Shown: positions 3,377 to 18,423 of the stretch, piece by piece | Layout of the letters: every line of letters starts with the position of its first letter | How positions within the stretch are numbered: position 1 is the first letter of the stretch | IMG/VR virus record: IMGVR_UViG_2734482777_000003 | DNA: 22,881 nucleotides | DNA from: a virus | Lineage: Duplodnaviria > Heunggongvirae > Uroviricota > Caudoviricetes | Reading direction: 5' to 3' (one strand) | Notes under the pieces: generated by a model | Seen by the model: only the letters and a program-made list of their open reading frames with translations | The model's database searches: none | Told to the model about the DNA's origin: nothing | Translations under genes and position numbers: made by a program

Positions 3377-3717
3377 CAGTGAGTGACCTCTTCAAAGGTA
3401 CAGTTAAAATCGGTATACATGGCATTATCCGAAATGCTCCACTCCCTGCAGACAACCCGGACAGTCCTGTTGTGTTTTGGCGGACGCCACAAAAAAGCAC
3501 GAATCCCGGCATGACGGGATAAAAAACTGTCCAGCGCGGCACGGGAATATTCATCTGTGACACGAAATACCGGTTTAAACGTTTTCAGATCCGCATTCAG
3601 ACCACCAGCCCGTCGCTGTTCATATCCGTCACCAAACTTTACCGTAATAACTGATGGCTTTCGTGTCGTCTCCATCCCCTCACGGGGGATCCAGTTAAAA
3701 ACTTCAGGCTCAGGCAC
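3376..3717 (-). CDS. M: Tail tip protein M
   Basis: Translation ...EVFNWIPREGMETTRKPSVITVKFGDGYEQRRAGGLNADLKTF... aligns with the lambda gpM N-terminus. I place the start at an in-frame GTG preceded by GGAGGA at about 7 nt spacing, overlapping the H stop. The track's longer 3762 start is an unsupported upstream extension; an ATG at 3732 or 3675 is an alternative. Confidence 0.7.
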   Translation of the reverse strand: MPEPEVFNWIPREGMETTRKPSVITVKFGDGYEQRRAGGLNADLKTFKPVFRVTDEYSRAALDSFLSRHAGIRAFLWRPPKHNRTVRVVCREWSISDNAMYTDFNCTFEEVTH

Positions 3718-6700
3718 TGTACAATCCTCCATCCCGACGCGATGACTGCATAATTGACACAACCCTGCTGTCGATCAGATCCACCAGTCCCCTGGCTGAG
3801 CGCGCATCTATCTCGCCATTGCTCCCTTGATTCTGAATGCTGATGTGATACACGGGAGAATAAACAAATCCACCGCCACCATTCACATTTCCAATGGCCC
3901 TGACCCCAAGAGAGCCGTCCGCTGCCCGTGTCAGTGGCATGATTGCTTCAGGCCCGGCCTCGCCCATCAACCCGGCACCTTTCGCAAAAGCAAAATACGT
4001 CGGTGTATCCACAATAGTGTTACTGTAAGCACTCAGATTTGCCGATGTGTAAACACCACCTTTTGCGTTTGCCACTGCCCCCGAAATCCATCCGCCGACC
4101 GTACCAAGCCACCCTCCGGCACCGGAGAGTGATTTCAGTCCGTTAACAATGGCTGCATTCATCAGAATTTTTGAAACTTCCCGGAGAACTGAACTCCCCC
4201 AGTTCCTCCAGTCCACAACATTCCCGGCCAGTGCATCGGAAATATTTGATACCAGCCCGTCCATCGTGGAAACGACAGCATCTGCCGCCTGTGAAGCATA
4301 ATCGGTGGCACTGTCTGCCCAGTTGGTCAGTCCCTCCTGGAGTCCGGCATTCCAGTTATTACGTAAAGCATCGGCCTTTGCATAATAATCCTGCTGATCG
4401 CTGAGACGCTCTTCCAGATATTTTTTATTCAGTTCTTTCTCCTGTTTCCACAGGGCTTCTTCAATTTCTCCGGCCTGATACTGTCTCAGCAGCTCGTTAT
4501 TTTTCTGCTCAAACGCCTGCCGGATACTCCACATTTCCTGGAGTCGTTCACGCATCCGTGAGCCTTCACCATATCCCAGCAACTGCGCTTCGTCAGATGC
4601 CCGGGCACTGGCATTACTGTCCGCCAGACTGCTCTCATACGCAGCAAGCTGCTCACGAATCTTTTTCTGGTCGATGAGTGCTGCATTCTGCAAAAGCGTT
4701 TTTTTCTGCGCTTCTGACAGGGTTGATAATTCGCCCTGACTGACCTGATATTTCATCTTAGCCAGTTCAGTATTCTGCCCTGCCAGTGCTATTTGTTCTT
4801 TTTGCTGTTTAATCAGCCGTTTATAAATATCTTCTGTTTTTTCAGCTTCGGTCTTTTTATGCGCTTTTGGTTTATTTGCCTGGTTATTTCGCCAGGCATC
4901 CAGTGAGTTATTGATATAATTCTGTCTGGCTGTCTGATACGCCTCTCCCACAAAGCCGAGATCATCCGCAGCATAACCCAGGCGGGCACGCTCACGGGCT
5001 TCCCCCTTCAGGCGGGACAGAGCCAGTTCGCGCTCGCTGTTATTCAGTGCTGTCTGCTGTTTATCATCCAGGGTTGCCTGTGGTAGCCGTAACGGTACAT
5101 TCACCATCCCCTGTCGCTGCTGAAGTAATTCATTACCGAGCCCGAGAAGGCGATTAAACTCGGTATGCTGCCCATTCATGATCAACAGGGACTGATACGC
5201 TTTGTTTTGTTCCGCTGCCTGTTGACGGATCAACGCCACCCGTCGCTCCTCCAGCCCGGCAAGCACATCCTGAATGGATTCCGCTTTGCCCTGCATTTGT
5301 GTGAGACGGGACTGTTCAACTGCCAGTTGATTTGTTGCTTCTGCAAGCCCTTCTGTGACAGTTTTTACCGACGTCATGTGGTTAATCATAAAACCGTTAT
5401 CGGTTGTCCAGCCCGGGTTTGCCAGCACATACTGATAGCCAGCAATTTTTTCCTGTAAGGATTTAATCTTACTTTTCTGCTCGTCAATTAACCTGTTTTG
5501 CTCATCAAGTGCCTGCCGCGTCTTTTCCTCATTATCTGACGCTTCAGGAAGCGACATTGCCGACGTTTTCTGGCGAATTTCGTCGATTGTTGCGGCATAC
5601 TGGCGTGCAGATTCTCTGGCCTGCTCCTGATTCTGATACATCGTGTACCAGGCCGTCGCCCCCAGCATGACGAGTCCCGGCACACCACCAACCAACCCCA
5701 GCGCACCACTTAACAGACGACTCCCCACTGACGTGACAGTATTTAGCGTTGTCTGTGCCGCTGTTCTGGCCGCAATATTACGGGTAAGTGACGCCTGGGC
5801 AGCAGCCAGTTTCGCTTCTGCGGCTGCCTGCCTTTCGGTACCGCGAGCAGCAACAACCGCCTGTTGCGCACGATAAACCGCCGCACGCGCCCTGGCTGTT
5901 GCTATCTGTGTCCCCCGGAGCTGCGCTTCCGCAAGAGCCACTTCGTTTCTGGCTGCAGTAATTAATCCGGCAGTTGCAGATCCAGCAGAAGACGCCATAT
6001 TGCCAAAATATCGGGCTACCCCGACGGCAACCAGAGCACCGGCAGCGGTTGCCACAGTGTCAATATTGCCTGCAATACCATTCAGCACACCGGAGAGCGT
6101 CTTCGTCACTCCGCTTGCCTCGTTCGCACCACCAACCCAGGCCATAAAGGCGTTTTCAACTTTGGTTGCAGAGGATGAAACCGTATCAGGCATTGCCGCA
6201 TATTCATCACGTAATGCCCCAAGCTGACTAATCAGTGCAGGAACAACCTTATCGGCGGTCAGTTTTCCGTTATCCGCCATGGCCTTCAGATCCTTACGGG
6301 CAACCCCCATTCCCGCAGCCAGCGCACGAATAACACGATCGCCGTTCTCATTCACCGAGTTAAACTCTTCACCGCGCAGCACTCCCTGCGCCAGTGCCTG
6401 ACTGAACTGCGTGATCACCGAACTGGCTTCTGCTGTACTGGCACCGGATAATTTCAGGCCCGTGGAGATCGCCTCGGTGACTTTCAGTACCTCCTCAGAA
6501 CTGTAACCATACTCCCGCATGGAAGCTGCAGAACGGGCAAAAAGGCTGGCGTTATCAGAAAACGCCGTCCCCGTTCTCTGGCTGATCGCCATTAATTCAC
6601 GTTGTGATACCTGAAAATCATCACTGGACTGTGAGGCCTGCTTCAGACGGGCATTTACTGAATTCCACTCATCGGCGAGAGAAATAAGATGACCGGTAGC

Positions 6701-6943
6701 AAAAGCCCCGGCAAATGCCCCCGCCATATTCAGTGCCGAAGATTTAGCTGTATTTATCTGATCCGTCACTTCTGCCAGTGCACGCCGCATTTCACGGGAT
6801 GCAGCAGCGGACTGCCGGCCTCCGTTCTGCATGGTACGGTAGTAATCCTGCCCCATACGCGAAGCCCGGGAGATCTCTGACTGGAATGACCGGGAATTTG
6901 CCGAGATTTTAATAATCAGTTCACGTAATGTCGCCACACTCAT
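3710..6943 (-). CDS. H: Tail tape measure protein (1077 aa)
   Basis: Very long ORF in the lambda H position between GT and M, with long Ala/Gln-rich predicted coiled-coil stretches and a Gly-rich C-terminal region. A GTG two codons in is an alternative start. Confidence 0.9.
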   Translation of the reverse strand: MSVATLRELIIKISANSRSFQSEISRASRMGQDYYRTMQNGGRQSAAASREMRRALAEVTDQINTAKSSALNMAGAFAGAFATGHLISLADEWNSVNARLKQASQSSDDFQVSQRELMAISQRTGTAFSDNASLFARSAASMREYGYSSEEVLKVTEAISTGLKLSGASTAEASSVITQFSQALAQGVLRGEEFNSVNENGDRVIRALAAGMGVARKDLKAMADNGKLTADKVVPALISQLGALRDEYAAMPDTVSSSATKVENAFMAWVGGANEASGVTKTLSGVLNGIAGNIDTVATAAGALVAVGVARYFGNMASSAGSATAGLITAARNEVALAEAQLRGTQIATARARAAVYRAQQAVVAARGTERQAAAEAKLAAAQASLTRNIAARTAAQTTLNTVTSVGSRLLSGALGLVGGVPGLVMLGATAWYTMYQNQEQARESARQYAATIDEIRQKTSAMSLPEASDNEEKTRQALDEQNRLIDEQKSKIKSLQEKIAGYQYVLANPGWTTDNGFMINHMTSVKTVTEGLAEATNQLAVEQSRLTQMQGKAESIQDVLAGLEERRVALIRQQAAEQNKAYQSLLIMNGQHTEFNRLLGLGNELLQQRQGMVNVPLRLPQATLDDKQQTALNNSERELALSRLKGEARERARLGYAADDLGFVGEAYQTARQNYINNSLDAWRNNQANKPKAHKKTEAEKTEDIYKRLIKQQKEQIALAGQNTELAKMKYQVSQGELSTLSEAQKKTLLQNAALIDQKKIREQLAAYESSLADSNASARASDEAQLLGYGEGSRMRERLQEMWSIRQAFEQKNNELLRQYQAGEIEEALWKQEKELNKKYLEERLSDQQDYYAKADALRNNWNAGLQEGLTNWADSATDYASQAADAVVSTMDGLVSNISDALAGNVVDWRNWGSSVLREVSKILMNAAIVNGLKSLSGAGGWLGTVGGWISGAVANAKGGVYTSANLSAYSNTIVDTPTYFAFAKGAGLMGEAGPEAIMPLTRAADGSLGVRAIGNVNGGGGFVYSPVYHISIQNQGSNGEIDARSARGLVDLIDSRVVSIMQSSRRDGGLYSA

Positions 6944-6952
6944 TCTCCGGAC

Positions 6953-6975
6953 GAAAAAAAACCGCCGAAGCGGTT
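6953..6975 (-). terminator. Terminator-like hairpin with UUCG tetraloop and U8 run between the T stop and H start
   Basis: Minus strand AACCGC-UUCG-GCGGUU followed by UUUUUUUU, about 10 nt before the H start codon. Confidence 0.5.
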
Positions 6976-6983
6976 ATGTTGAC

Positions 6984-7672
6984 TCACTGAGACACTATTA
7001 AAAGCGCGTTTTCCAGTCCGGCAAATGGATCTGATACGCCTTCTGTCTGCTCCTTCTCCCACTGAAGAAGCGCATCATTCAGTGGCACTTTGACCCCCTG
7101 CGCACCGTAAACAGCTGAAACAATCTGGGCAGCCCGGATATCAGCCCGTTCGTCCCCCAGCGGGCTGAACCTGTCAAATTCTGCCCACATCATGATTTCT
7201 GATGCGGACATTTCCCGGCGTAACTCTGACAATGTGCGCCCCATCCTGAGCGCCAGCATCATCAGAAAACGCATCCCCGGAAGCTCTACTTTTTTTTAAC
7301 CTCGCCGGCATCACTGATCAGTTCCAGAGACTGCCGAAGAAGCCGCGCATGCACCGGGCCATACACGGCAATCACCTGTTCACGATCATCCTCTGAAAAT
7401 ACAGGTTGCAGTCCGGTATCACACAGAACATCAATGAACAGTTCAACATCTGCCTCCAGATTTCGGCGGGCGCGCTCCGCAACGGATAACGGTGTCTCAT
7501 CATCTTTTGCTTTAACGATCTCCTGCCAGCGCAACCAGGCTTCTGCAGAAGGTTCCCGTAATACAACCGTTGCCCCTTCCCATTCAGGCACATCAACAGT
7601 TTTATGGCGAAACCCCGACATCGTTGCCAGTGCTAGATTGCGGATATTTTTAGTCATCACATCTATCCTCAT
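6984..7672 (-). CDS. GT: Tail assembly chaperone G-T fusion made by -1 programmed frameshift (two-frame product)
   Basis: The G frame ends at the slippery site; the -1 frame continues ...KK|VELPGMRFLMMLALRMG... to the stop at 6984. This is the conserved arrangement in lambda-like siphophage tail chaperones. Confidence 0.7.
7286..7672 (-). CDS. G: Tail assembly chaperone G
   Basis: 128 aa ORF directly downstream of V (ATG overlaps the V stop). It ends ...GEVKKK-stop on an A-rich slippery run, with the T frame open in the -1 frame. Confidence 0.8.
   Translation of the reverse strand: MRIDVMTKNIRNLALATMSGFRHKTVDVPEWEGATVVLREPSAEAWLRWQEIVKAKDDETPLSVAERARRNLEADVELFIDVLCDTGLQPVFSEDDREQVIAVYGPVHARLLRQSLELISDAGEVKKK
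7289..7295 (-). other. -1 programmed ribosomal frameshift slippery heptamer A_AAA_AAG at the end of G
   Basis: Minus strand reads GCC GGC GAG GTT AAA AAA AAG TAG. The heptamer A AAA AAG sits in the last two G codons, and the -1 frame is open from here into the T segment. Confidence 0.7.
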
Positions 7673-8376
7673 TAACTGACGGTAACAGTGCAGGAAGTGG
7701 AGGTCACCTTGTTAACAGGGCTTGCTGAATCAGAAATCTCGCAGGTATACGCACCGGCATCACCTGATGCTGCTGATGCCTTACTGAATGTTGCCGCCGT
7801 CTGTCCGGAAACAGGAGAACTACCTTTCTTCCAGACATAAGAATAAGGCGGCACACCACCGGCAGCCTCAACCACCATTTCGAGTTTCGCTCCGGCAGAA
7901 ACCTGCAGCGTGCTGTTTAAATCGACCTTCACTTTCAGCGGCTCTGTCGTCAGCACAGGTTTACCTTTCAGGCGCAGGGAAAACGTTGCAGCCACAACAC
8001 CATTAGTTCCTGCAGACCAGGTATGCTGACGCACCTCTGCCATAAAGGTAAATCCGTTGCCTGACGGAAAAATAACTTTAAAGCCATACGTGGTGTCATT
8101 GTCATAGGCACTGCGCAACGCGTTCTGGGCAGCATTGAGGTAAAAGTTGCCTGACATGGAAATCTCTGACGCGGCACCAAGGCCGTTAATATTTTCCTGC
8201 TCAACAGAACACAGCGTGGTGACATCAATATCCTGCTTTTGTCCTGCGGTAAACTGCACCTCTTTGATTGTACAGCTCAGGCCAAGATAGCTGGCAGAAT
8301 CCAGGGTTTCTGCTGTTACCGGTGCAGACGAAATCATAATTTTCGTCAGTTGCGAACGCTCAAAATTAGAGGACAT
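7672..8376 (-). CDS. V: Major tail tube protein V with C-terminal Ig-like domain
   Basis: Start refined to the ATG of MSSNFERSQ..., preceded by AGGAGA at 5 nt; the track's 8427 start is an extension through the upstream hairpin. The C-terminal segment (VSAGAKLEMVVEAAGGVPPYSYVWKK...) looks Ig-like. Sits in the lambda V position. Confidence 0.85.
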   Translation of the reverse strand: MSSNFERSQLTKIMISSAPVTAETLDSASYLGLSCTIKEVQFTAGQKQDIDVTTLCSVEQENINGLGAASEISMSGNFYLNAAQNALRSAYDNDTTYGFKVIFPSGNGFTFMAEVRQHTWSAGTNGVVAATFSLRLKGKPVLTTEPLKVKVDLNSTLQVSAGAKLEMVVEAAGGVPPYSYVWKKGSSPVSGQTAATFSKASAASGDAGAYTCEISDSASPVNKVTSTSCTVTVS

Positions 8377-8392
8377 ACTCGTCTCCTGAAAA

Positions 8393-8414
8393 TAAAAAAC
8401 CCGCCAGCGGCGGG
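8393..8414 (-). terminator. Terminator-like hairpin plus U-run between the tail-completion gene and V
   Basis: Minus strand CCCGCC-GCU-GGCGGG followed by UUUUUUAUUUUC, directly upstream of the V ribosome-binding site. Confidence 0.45.
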
Positions 8415-8435
8415 TGGGTAAAATCATTAACGACC

Positions 8436-18113: not shown

Positions 18114-18188
<75 letters not shown>

Positions 18189-18191
18189 ATA

Positions 18192-18267
<76 letters not shown>

Positions 18268-18269
18268 AC

Positions 18270-18346
18270 TGGACCGCCACCGGGGACTCGAACCTCGCAC
18301 ACTCAACTTAAAGGGTTGACGCTCTTTCCTGATGAGCTAGTGGCGG
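18270..18346 (-). tRNA. tRNA-like gene with non-canonical features (anticodon loop CCUUUAA, formally UUU/Lys)
   Basis: Reverse complement reads CCGCCACTAGCTCATCAGGAAAGAGCGTCAACCCTTTAAGTTGAGTGTGCGAGGTTCGAGTCCCCGGTGGCGGTCCA. Cloverleaf is foldable but has C at position 33, a C1-G72 pair and an A-C mismatch in the T stem. May be an unusual phage tRNA or a pseudo-tRNA. Confidence 0.4.
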
Positions 18347-18347
18347 T

Positions 18348-18423
18348 TGGTGGCCCTTGCTGGATTTGAACCAGCGACCTGGCGATTATGAGTCGCTCGC
18401 TCTCACCACTGAGCTAAAGGGCC
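18348..18423 (-). tRNA. tRNA with CAU anticodon, most like tRNA-Ile2 (ileX/ileZ-like; Met cannot be excluded)
   Basis: Reverse complement reads GGCCCTTTAGCTCAGTGGTGAGAGCGAGCGACTCATAATCGCCAGGTCGCTGGTTCAAATCCAGCAAGGGCCACCA. Anticodon loop CUCAUAA; strong resemblance to E. coli ileX. Confidence 0.75.

What the first reader, a model, noticed from the sequence alone, without database searches (positions are those of the whole stretch)
6984..7672. Tail chaperone G/GT programmed -1 frameshift is readable directly from the sequence
G ends ...GTT AAA AAA AAG TAG, so the heptamer A_AAA_AAG sits in its last two codons, and the -1 frame is open from that point for about 100 codons into the T segment (...KK|VELPGMRFLMM...). 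This is the conserved two-frame chaperone arrangement; the heptamer here is the dnaX-type A AAA AAG rather than lambda's G GGA AAG.
Basis: partly seen in the sequence, partly recalled or inferred. Interest (0 to 1): 0.45.

Follow-up and report, generated by a model that had tools for sequence, protein, structure and literature searches.

The report
Phage tail chaperone G/GT frameshift site

Summary
On the minus strand, gene G (7657..7286) ends GTT AAA AAA AAG TAG. The heptamer A_AAA_AAG (7295..7289) is in slip register. The -1 frame opens exactly there, closed just upstream by TAA at 7298-7296, and runs 101 further codons to TGA at 6986-6984. G is a Phage_TAC_1 chaperone (E=3e-58) and the -1 segment is Phage_tail_T (E=4e-19). 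The pair lies between the major tail and tape-measure genes. The fused 224-aa product aligns ungapped, 1-224, with HK97 gp14 ("translated due to a -1 frameshift"; 64% identity, E=1e-109). In 111 of 113 distinct related junctions T lies in the -1 frame, and A_AAA_AAG is the commonest motif (54). The peptide between the slip site and the first Met is conserved, and ATG 7274 is not. "dnaX-type" applies to the heptamer only: there is no Shine-Dalgarno-like element 10-14 nt upstream and no conserved downstream structure. Untested rival contributions are transcriptional slippage on the A8 run, which would give the same protein, and independent T initiation, which is unlikely. This is a textbook feature that RefSeq does not annotate as a join here. 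Interest is low.

The parts
7286..7657 (-). Gene G, tail assembly chaperone, 123 aa plus stop TAG (7288-7286). An alternative upstream ATG at 7672 would give 128 aa.
   Evidence: Pfam PF06222 Phage_TAC_1 E=2.8e-58, with profile position 1 at residue 6 of the 128-aa ORF. PDB 2ob9 (HK97 gp13) E=2.6e-49. RefSeq calls the 123-aa form.
7289..7295 (-). Slippery heptamer A_AAA_AAG in zero-frame register; it takes in the last two codons of G.
   Evidence: Direct reading. Register check. The same motif sits at the homologous position in 54 of 111 distinct family junctions, and A-AAG is invariant in the alignment of 24 diverse members.
7290..7297 (-). A8 homopolymer run containing the heptamer; polymorphic in length among relatives.
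   Evidence: Census in this lineage: A8 in 67 loci, A7 in 2, A9 (G->A) in 2. A9+G in 10/10 contigs that encode the fused ORF.
7296..7298 (-). TAA stop in the -1 frame immediately upstream of the heptamer; it sets the 5' limit of the window in which the shift can occur.
   Evidence: Translation of the -1 frame...CRRG*KKVELPG....
6984..7289 (-). T segment, read in the -1 frame from G7289 (re-read): 101 codons (VELPGMRFLMM...LLIVSQ) plus stop TGA (6986-6984).
   Evidence: Pfam PF06223 Phage_tail_T E=4.4e-19. phrog_337 and phrog_14766. Post-slip peptide V-x-x-P-x-x-x-F-L-M-x-LALRxGRTL conserved across the family.
6984..7657 (-). Predicted GT fusion CDS, join(7657..7289, 7289..6984) on the minus strand, 224 aa.
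   Evidence: Ungapped alignment 1-224 to HK97 gp14, 63.8% identity, E=1e-109. phrog_14766 single stretch 1-220/224, E=3.1e-92.
7672..8427 (-). Major tail (tube) protein gene with a C-terminal Ig-like domain, directly upstream of G.
   Evidence: Pfam Ig_2/Ig_3, Phage_TTP_11 and Phage_tail_2 (weak). Relatives annotate it as the major tail subunit.
3710..6943 (-). Tape measure protein gene (1077 aa), directly downstream of T.
   Evidence: Pfam Phage_HK97_TLTM E=4.9e-94, TMP_3, Tape_meas_lam_C.
6952..6975 (-). Terminator-like hairpin AACCGCTTCGGCGGTT followed by a T run, between the T stop and the tape-measure start.
   Evidence: HK97 and HK446 have annotated terminators at the corresponding place.

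Best explanation
Most ribosomes translating G (start 7657) read ...GTT AAA AAA AAG and terminate at TAG, releasing the 123-aa tail assembly chaperone G. A minority slip back one nucleotide while tRNA-Lys occupies the AAA/AAG codons of A_AAA_AAG (7295..7289). They re-pair on AAA AAA, resume at GTA (7289-7287) and translate 101 more codons in the -1 frame. The result is a 224-aa GT protein (...GEVKKK|VELPGMRFLMMLALRMGRTL...).

By analogy with lambda gpG/gpGT and HK97 gp13/gp14, many G subunits and a few GT subunits coat the tape measure protein (3710..6943). The T domain recruits the major tail protein (7672..8427) to start tube polymerisation, and neither form ends up in the virion.

Shown here: the sequence anatomy, the homology of both halves, the continuity of the fused product with an annotated frameshift protein, and family-wide conservation of the frame relation and of A-AAG at the junction. 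Inferred: that the fusion is actually made, that the event is ribosomal, that its efficiency is low (a few per cent, with no stimulators found), and the assembly role.
For: - Anatomy: the heptamer is in register and the two frames can be joined only within 7295-7286.
- Identity: PF06222 E=2.8e-58 for G and PF06223 E=4.4e-19 for T. G matches PDB 2ob9, the HK97 gp13 TAC, at E=2.6e-49. Flanking genes are the major tail and tape-measure genes.
- Fusion continuity: 224 aa, ungapped 1-224 against HK97 gp14 (record note 'translated due to a -1 frameshift'), 63.8% identity, E=1e-109. phrog_14766 matches 1-220/224 in one stretch, E=3e-92.
- Conservation: T is in the -1 frame in 249/251 loci and 111/113 distinct junctions, although the G tail after the slip site varies from 0 to 33 nt. 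Motifs: A_AAA_AAG 54, G_GAA_AAG 32, G_GGA_AAG 10, G_GCA_AAG 7. A-AAG is invariant.
- Annotated -1 joins in relatives: HK97, HK446 and Bcep176, the last with A_AAA_AAG.
- The region between the slip site and the first Met is conserved at protein level (V-x-x-P-x-x-x-F-L-M). ATG 7274 is replaced by GTG, ATA or ATT in close relatives, and L092 lacks the FLM Met.
- Deposited phage genomes of this lineage (Evi, PhiR49_2, vB_EcoM-606R7) carry the same A8-G-TAG junction, which argues against a decayed gene; the records as seen here do not say how those phages were obtained.
- Literature: A_AAA_AAG is the most shift-prone heptamer for E. coli ribosomes, lambda G:GT is about 30:1, and the G-T frameshift is widely conserved (PMC5009743).
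Against: - There is no experimental evidence for this element; everything rests on sequence and homology.
- No stimulatory element was found. The GAGG upstream is only 4 nt from the heptamer and is not conserved. No stable structure starts 3-9 nt downstream (z about +1), the strongest hairpin starts 21 nt downstream, and RNAalifold finds 0 conserved pairs in 24 relatives.
- RefSeq and GenBank relatives annotate T as a separate gene starting at an internal ATG. A Met at the FLM position is conserved in most relatives, so independent initiation is not strictly excluded.
- The A8 run could also allow RNA polymerase slippage, which yields the identical protein (PMC1088944).
Confidence: 0.88

Rival explanations
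1. Transcriptional slippage: RNA polymerase inserts one extra A when copying the A8/T8 run (7297-7290). A subset of mRNAs then carry G and T in one frame and are translated normally into the same 224-aa GT protein. This could be the main route or a contributor alongside ribosomal frameshifting.
For: The run is 8 A long. Slippage is efficient at runs of 9 A or T in bacteria and appears productive at 8 A in some IS elements; an A8 run in human apoB gives about 10% +1A transcripts (PMC1088944; PMC5009743). The run is unstable at the DNA level too: A7, A9 and A9+G variants exist. A +1A transcript gives exactly the same protein, V-K-K-K-V.
Against: Across the family it is the in-register heptamer, not a long run, that is conserved. 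A-run lengths among the 55 distinct A_AAA_AAG junctions are 6 (6), 7 (33) and 8 (16). Many relatives use G_GGA_AAG, G_GAA_AAG or G_GCA_AAG, with only 3-4 A, where polymerase slippage is implausible. A-AAG with the G is what is invariant, the signature of tRNA-Lys slippage in E. coli.
Confidence: 0.06
2. T is an independent gene, as RefSeq annotates it. Ribosomes terminate at the G stop and initiate or re-initiate at ATG 7274 or ATG 7262, giving a free 96- or 92-aa T protein and no fusion.
For: RefSeq and GenBank annotate a separate 92-96-aa 'phage tail assembly protein T / DUF4035' CDS. ATGs lie 12 and 24 nt after the G stop. A Met at the FLM position is conserved in most relatives. In a Klebsiella relative an ATG follows the G stop by 2 nt.
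Against: ATG 7274 is GTG, ATA or ATT in close relatives. No Shine-Dalgarno motif is conserved before ATG 7262. L092 has Leu at the FLM Met. Residues upstream of that Met (V..P...FL) are conserved at protein level while the DNA diverges. The -1 frame relation holds in 111/113 distinct junctions, where independent genes would show no frame preference. The -1 frame opens exactly at the heptamer. HK97 gp14 aligns across the junction without a gap.
Confidence: 0.03
3. Decayed gene: an ancestral single GT gene was split by a 1-nt deletion in a mutable homopolymer in a defective prophage, and the arrangement has no function.
For: The homopolymer length does vary at the DNA level. A9+G alleles with a single fused 224-aa ORF exist in at least 19 contigs, and A7 alleles exist (L047, L067).
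Against: The split A8 form is by far the majority: 67 of 71 loci, and the separate G protein is on at least 1000 contigs against 12-19 for the fused one. It is also the form in the deposited phage genomes of this lineage. The two-frame layout is conserved in relatives down to 29% identity, including HK97. In lambda both G and GT are required, in a set ratio (PMC5009743).
Confidence: 0.02

Closest known systems
Bacteriophage HK97 gp13 / gp14 (tail assembly chaperone and its -1 frameshift extension; PDB 2OB9 for gp13)
   Same: Same Pfam families (Phage_TAC_1 + Phage_tail_T). Same position between the major tail and tape-measure genes. The same 224-aa fused length, with an ungapped end-to-end alignment at 63.8% identity. 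The slip occurs at the same alignment column, on a Lys AAG codon.
   Different: HK97 and HK446 use the non-canonical G_GAA_AAG, with G continuing 5 codons past the slip site. Here it is the canonical A_AAA_AAG abutting the stop. HK97 has a moron (gp15) between T and the tape-measure gene; this prophage has only a terminator-like hairpin there.
Bacteriophage lambda gpG / gpGT
   Same: Same logic and gene position, a -1 shift near the end of G, a T domain in Pfam PF06223, and an A-site AAG Lys codon. Role as described in PMC5009743.
   Different: The lambda heptamer is G_GGA_AAG. Lambda GT as reconstructed here is 279 aa, against 224 aa. There is no BLASTP-detectable similarity between the window GT and lambda GT (best E=1.6). 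From my own knowledge, not tested here, lambda G belongs to a different Pfam chaperone family than PF06222.
E. coli dnaX -1 frameshift cassette
   Same: Identical heptamer A_AAA_AAG, decoded by the single E. coli tRNA-Lys(UUU).
   Different: dnaX reaches about 50% efficiency. From my own knowledge, it does so through an upstream Shine-Dalgarno-like element about 10 nt 5' of the heptamer and a stem-loop about 6 nt 3' of it. Neither is present or conserved here. In dnaX the shifted product is the shorter one; here it is the longer.
Burkholderia phage Bcep176 gp69 / gp69'
   Same: Same chaperone family (29% identity), the same A_AAA_AAG heptamer, and an annotated two-piece join described as 'lambda G / T equivalent'.
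   Different: G continues 33 nt past the heptamer, and the A run is 6 rather than 8.

Membership tests
Tail assembly chaperone G/GT programmed -1 frameshift (Levin 1993 / Xu, Hendrix & Duda 2004 class) | Two overlapping ORFs located between the major tail protein gene and the tape measure gene | tested here: met
   Major tail 7672..8427, G 7657..7286, T 7289..6984, tape measure 6943..3710, all on the minus strand.
Tail assembly chaperone G/GT programmed -1 frameshift (Levin 1993 / Xu, Hendrix & Duda 2004 class) | The second ORF is in the -1 frame relative to the first, and this relation is conserved among relatives | tested here: met
   111/113 distinct junctions (249/251 loci) have T in the -1 frame. 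The two exceptions are 1-nt deletions in the A run of this same lineage.
Tail assembly chaperone G/GT programmed -1 frameshift (Levin 1993 / Xu, Hendrix & Duda 2004 class) | A slippery X_XXY_YYZ heptamer in zero-frame register inside the overlap of the two frames | tested here: met
   A_AAA_AAG at 7295..7289, first base at codon position 3, inside the 10-nt joinable window.
Tail assembly chaperone G/GT programmed -1 frameshift (Levin 1993 / Xu, Hendrix & Duda 2004 class) | Both G and a G-T fusion protein are made, with the fusion a minor fraction, and both are needed for tail assembly | not testable with these tools
   Needs a reporter assay, western blot or MS, and phage genetics. Only indirect support here: deposited phage genomes of the lineage carry the same junction.
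HK97 gp13/gp14 family (Pfam PF06222 Phage_TAC_1 + PF06223 Phage_tail_T) | G matches Phage_TAC_1 above the curated cut-off | tested here: met
   195.7 bits against a cut-off of 25, E=2.8e-58, full profile 1-124. PDB 2ob9 E=2.6e-49.
HK97 gp13/gp14 family (Pfam PF06222 Phage_TAC_1 + PF06223 Phage_tail_T) | The -1 segment matches Phage_tail_T above the curated cut-off | tested here: met
   69.1 bits against a cut-off of 25.9, E=4.4e-19.
HK97 gp13/gp14 family (Pfam PF06222 Phage_TAC_1 + PF06223 Phage_tail_T) | The conceptual fusion is collinear with an annotated frameshift product across the junction | tested here: met
   Ungapped 1-224 / 1-224 with HK97 gp14, E=1e-109. phrog_14766 single stretch 1-220/224.
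Lambda gpG/gpGT (sequence family of lambda itself) | Detectable pairwise sequence similarity to lambda G and GT | tested here: not met
   BLASTP of the window GT against lambda GT gave a best E of 1.6. Only the T part is linked, through the shared Pfam profile PF06223. It works like lambda G/GT but is not a close sequence relative.
dnaX-type frameshift cassette | Heptamer A_AAA_AAG | tested here: met
dnaX-type frameshift cassette | Shine-Dalgarno-like stimulator about 10-14 nt 5' of the heptamer | tested here: not met
   The only GAGG (7303-7300) ends 4 nt before the heptamer and is absent in L068-type relatives.
dnaX-type frameshift cassette | Stable stem-loop starting about 5-9 nt 3' of the heptamer | tested here: not met
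   45-nt windows at spacers of 3-9 nt gave dG of -9 to -14 kcal/mol, z from +1.1 to -0.8, rank 111/210 within G-T. There are 0 consensus pairs in 24 relatives.
Programmed transcriptional slippage site | Run of 9 or more A/T (the efficient range in bacteria), with run length conserved among homologues | tested here: not met
   The run is A8 here. Among A_AAA_AAG relatives it is 6, 7 or 8, and other relatives have only 3-4 A. The threshold is taken from PMC1088944 and PMC5009743. A minor contribution at A8 is not excluded.

The most novel reading that the evidence does not exclude
The A8 tract may be slippery at three levels at once, not just for the ribosome: ribosomal -1 shift, RNA polymerase +1A insertion, and replication slippage. 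Natural A7, A8 and A9+G alleles would then form a heritable on/off or ratio switch for tail assembly in this widespread E. coli prophage. The G:GT ratio might be tuned further by the prophage's own tRNA-Lys(UUU) gene (18270-18346), which decodes exactly the slippery codons.
Probability: 0.05. Interest if true: 0.45.

Novelty: already known. Interest (0 to 1): 0.12.

Why it matters
Biologically it adds nothing new. The G/GT frameshift is a textbook conserved feature of long-tailed phages, this gene pair is an orthologue (64% identity) of HK97 gp13/gp14, and A_AAA_AAG turns out to be the commonest slip motif in that chaperone family.

The practical value is for annotation. RefSeq (PGAP) and the GenBank phage records of this lineage, present in about 900 of 5,426 complete E. 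coli genomes, list G and a truncated 'T/DUF4035' protein as separate genes, or even three fragments, instead of G plus a joined 224-aa GT. A simple rule would fix many records: a Phage_TAC_1 ORF, a Phage_tail_T ORF in the -1 frame, and an in-register N_NNA_AAG motif (N = any base).

The homopolymer-length variants are also a reminder that 'fused' chaperone proteins in databases can come from +1A alleles or sequencing errors rather than from curated joins.

Tried and rejected
- Heptamer enrichment as evidence: rejected. AAAAAAG occurs 6 times in the window against 4.35 expected, and the two other coding-strand copies are out of register.
- 'Open -1 frame after the stop' as evidence on its own: rejected. 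It is common in this operon because downstream genes often lie in that frame.
- Downstream stimulatory RNA structure: the 131-nt fold gave z=-1.3. Spacer scans of 3-9 nt gave z of about +1. The strongest hairpin (7267-7223, -21.8 kcal/mol) starts 21 nt after the heptamer, inside the most conserved coding stretch. RNAalifold on 24 diverse relatives gave 0 pairs. No stimulator is supported.
- Upstream Shine-Dalgarno-like stimulator: GAGG is only 4 nt upstream and is not conserved.
- NCBIfam: no family hit for G or T.
- Lambda GT by BLASTP: no significant similarity.
- Looking for curated joins in close (~98%) GenBank phages and in RefSeq: none. The fused 224-aa proteins on record come from A9+G DNA, not from curation.
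- Link between the prophage tRNA-Lys and the slip site: the G749 prophage, with a 99.9% identical G/T region, has no annotated tRNA-Lys in its tRNA cluster (Ile, Thr, Gly only), and relatives differ in whether one is annotated. No tight linkage.
- I did not obtain the text of Xu et al. 2004. It is cited only through PMC5009743 and PMC10885494.

Full report
**1. What is in the sequence**

The genes of this window run on the minus strand. Read on that strand, 7300-7286 is GTT AAA AAA AAG TAG. The ORF ending there translates to ...LISDAGEVKKK*.

In the -1 frame there is a TAA at 7298-7296. The frame is then open from 7295 for 103 codons (KKVELPGMRFLMMLALRMGRTL...LLIVSQ) to TGA at 6986-6984. The two frames can therefore be joined by a -1 shift only inside 7295-7286, which consists of the A run, the G and the stop. 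Any -1 slip within the run gives the same product...E-V-K-K-K-V-E-L-P-G-M-R...

One small correction: G most likely starts at ATG 7657 (123 aa) rather than ATG 7672. The Pfam profile begins at residue 6 of the longer ORF, and RefSeq and all homologues start there.

**2. Is it more than chance?**

AAAAAAG occurs 6 times in the window against 4.35 expected from shuffles. A long open -1 frame after a stop codon is common in this tightly packed operon, because the next gene often lies in that frame. The signal is in the combination with homology and conservation, described next.

**3. Identity of the parts**

- G matches Pfam Phage_TAC_1 (PF06222) over the whole profile, E=2.8e-58.
- The -1 segment matches Phage_tail_T (PF06223), E=4.4e-19.
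- The upstream gene is a major tail (tube) protein with an Ig-like C-terminus.
- The downstream gene is a 1077-aa tape measure protein (Phage_HK97_TLTM, E=4.9e-94).
- G also matches PDB 2ob9 at E=2.6e-49, which is the HK97 gp13 tail assembly chaperone (PMC9603447).
- The conceptual fusion, join(7657..7289, 7289..6987), is 224 aa. It gives one continuous match to phrog_14766 (positions 1-220 of 224, E=3.1e-92).
- The fusion aligns without a single gap, 1-224 to 1-224, with HK97 gp14 (63.8% identity, E=1e-109). The HK97 record describes that protein as 'translated due to a -1 frameshift'.

The window is an HK97-like E. coli prophage: terminase, portal, HK97 protease, capsid, connectors, tail. 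The G/T region is found at 80% coverage or more in 898 of 5,426 complete E. coli genomes and in 11 GenBank phage records at 97.5-98.9% identity.

**4. Comparative test**

I collected 251 loci encoding relatives of G: annotated phages and three IMG/VR scans led by different family members. T lies in the -1 frame relative to G in 249 loci, which is 111 of 113 distinct junction sequences. The two exceptions (L047, L067) belong to this same lineage and have a 1-nt deletion in the A run. These junctions are not phylogenetically independent. However, the G tail after the slip site ranges from 0 to 33 nt, so the frame relation has survived many indel events.

Motifs at the homologous position:

| Motif | Distinct junctions |
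|---|---|
| A_AAA_AAG | 54 |
| G_GAA_AAG (HK97 type, non-canonical) | 32 |
| G_GGA_AAG (lambda type) | 10 |
| G_GCA_AAG | 7 |
| A_AAA_AAA | 2 |
| G_GGA_AAC | 2 |

The remaining four of the 111 junctions were one each of A_GCA_AAG, G_GGA_AAA and C_CCG_GGG, and one locus (L071) where my script found no site because the G hit was truncated. In an alignment of 24 diverse junctions the only invariant nucleotide block is A-AAG. That is the signature expected if slippage of E. coli-type tRNA-Lys from AAG to AAA is the selected event (PMC5009743). So the 'dnaX-type' heptamer is the norm in this chaperone family, not a departure.

**5. Against an independent T gene**

RefSeq annotates T as a separate 92-aa CDS from ATG 7262, and other records use ATG 7274 or even three fragments. 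Several results argue against this reading:
- ATG 7274 is GTG, ATA or ATT in close relatives.
- No Shine-Dalgarno motif is conserved before ATG 7262.
- One relative (L092) has Leu at that Met.
- The peptide between the slip site and that Met is conserved across the family (V-x-x-P-x-x-x-F-L-M-x-LALRxGRTL) while the DNA diverges.

Together with the frame conservation, this makes independent initiation unlikely. I give it about 0.03.

**6. Mechanism and its limits**

The best-supported mechanism is a low-efficiency -1 ribosomal frameshift on A_AAA_AAG. It would yield mostly G and a little GT, which act on the tape measure and major tail proteins as in lambda (G:GT about 30:1; PMC5009743).

No stimulators were found:
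- The upstream GAGG ends only 4 nt before the heptamer and is not conserved.
- Windows starting 3-9 nt downstream fold no better than shuffles (z from +1.1 to -0.8) and rank 111 of 210 within G-T.
- The strongest hairpin starts 21 nt downstream, inside the most conserved coding stretch.
- RNAalifold finds no conserved pair in 24 relatives.

The zero-frame stop directly abuts the heptamer here and in 36 of 55 distinct A_AAA_AAG junctions. Whether that stop raises efficiency is not known from these data. Efficiency, and the very existence of GT, remain inferred.

**7. Transcriptional slippage**

The heptamer here sits in an A8 run. Bacterial RNA polymerase slips efficiently on runs of 9 A or T and possibly on 8 (PMC1088944; PMC5009743), and a +1A transcript encodes exactly the same GT protein. 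Relatives keep the heptamer with runs of only 6 or 7 A (39 of 55 distinct junctions) or use motifs with 3-4 A. The conserved, selected feature is therefore the ribosomal one. A minor transcriptional contribution in this A8 lineage cannot be excluded.

**8. Side finding on the homopolymer**

The exact fused 224-aa protein is already in NCBI (for example CDK90654.1, 'Phage tail assembly chaperone'). This is not through curation. In all 10 contigs examined, out of 19 on record from several projects, the DNA has A9+G, so G and T are one ORF. With the A7 alleles, this shows that the run length is polymorphic, or error-prone in sequencing. The A8 form dominates: 67 of 71 loci, and the separate G protein is on at least 1000 contigs. 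It is also the form in the three deposited phage genomes of this lineage that I examined.

**9. Comparison with known systems and verdict**

This is a member of the HK97 gp13/gp14 family and of the general G/GT frameshift class. Every sequence-testable defining feature is met, and only expression is untested. It works like lambda G/GT but is not a close sequence relative of it (BLASTP E=1.6; only the T profile is shared). It shares only the heptamer with the dnaX cassette.

- Novelty: already known.
- Practical consequence: public annotations of this very common prophage module lack the join.
- Interest: 0.12.

Noticed in passing
window 18114-18423 (minus strand): A cluster of four tRNA genes between the Q antiterminator region and the lysis genes: Gly(tcc), Thr(tgt), Lys(ttt) at 18270-18346, and a CAT-anticodon tRNA that ARAGORN calls Met (RefSeq annotates a tRNA-Ile at the corresponding place in relatives). 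The prophage thus carries its own tRNA-Lys(UUU), the tRNA that decodes the slippery AAA/AAG codons. RefSeq annotates it in some relatives, but the G749 prophage, whose G/T region is 99.9% identical, has no annotated tRNA-Lys in its cluster.
   Followed up: partly
L253-L262 (A9+G), L047 and L067 (A7), L074 and L075 (A9, G->A); homologous to window 7289-7297: The A run at the slip site varies in length at the DNA level. A9+G alleles fuse G and T into one 224-aa ORF; this is the source of NCBI proteins such as CDK90654.1. A7 alleles put T out of reach of a -1 shift. A G->A variant gives A_AAA_AAA + TAG. Whether these are real alleles or homopolymer sequencing errors was not resolved.
   Followed up: partly
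window 6952-6975 (minus strand): A terminator-like hairpin, AACCGCTTCGGCGGTT followed by a T run, lies in the 40-nt gap between the T stop (6984) and the tape-measure start (6943). HK97 and HK446 have annotated rho-independent terminators at the corresponding place, flanking the moron gp15, which is absent here.
   Followed up: partly
window 6984-7672; L001, L002, L089, L090: Annotation gap. RefSeq/PGAP and the GenBank phage records of this lineage list G and a truncated T (92 or 96 aa from an internal ATG; 'DUF4035' / 'phage tail assembly protein T'), or three fragments in ON470580, and never the joined GT. HK97, HK446 and Bcep176 do carry the join.
   Followed up: yes
L003 (HK446) 961-969, L252 (HK97) 834-841, L005 (Klebsiella phage) about 993-1005: In HK97-type relatives the annotated shift site is CGG GAA AAG, which is G_GAA_AAG and not a canonical X_XXY_YYZ heptamer. 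Klebsiella relatives have GCA AAG TAA followed 2 nt later by an ATG in the T frame. Only A-AAG is invariant across the family. This suggests single-tRNA(Lys) slippage is sufficient, or that some members use a different route.
   Followed up: partly
window 7223-7267 (minus strand): The most stable local RNA hairpin of the G-T region (-21.8 kcal/mol for 45 nt) starts 21 nt after the heptamer, within the codons for FLMMLALRMGRTLSEL. It is too far downstream for a classical -1 stimulator and is not supported by covariation in relatives.
   Followed up: yes
window 7655-7674 (minus strand): There are two candidate starts for G. ATG 7672 overlaps the major-tail stop (TAATG). ATG 7657 lies 8 nt after GAGGA. 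Homologues, the Pfam profile and RefSeq favour 7657.
   Followed up: yes
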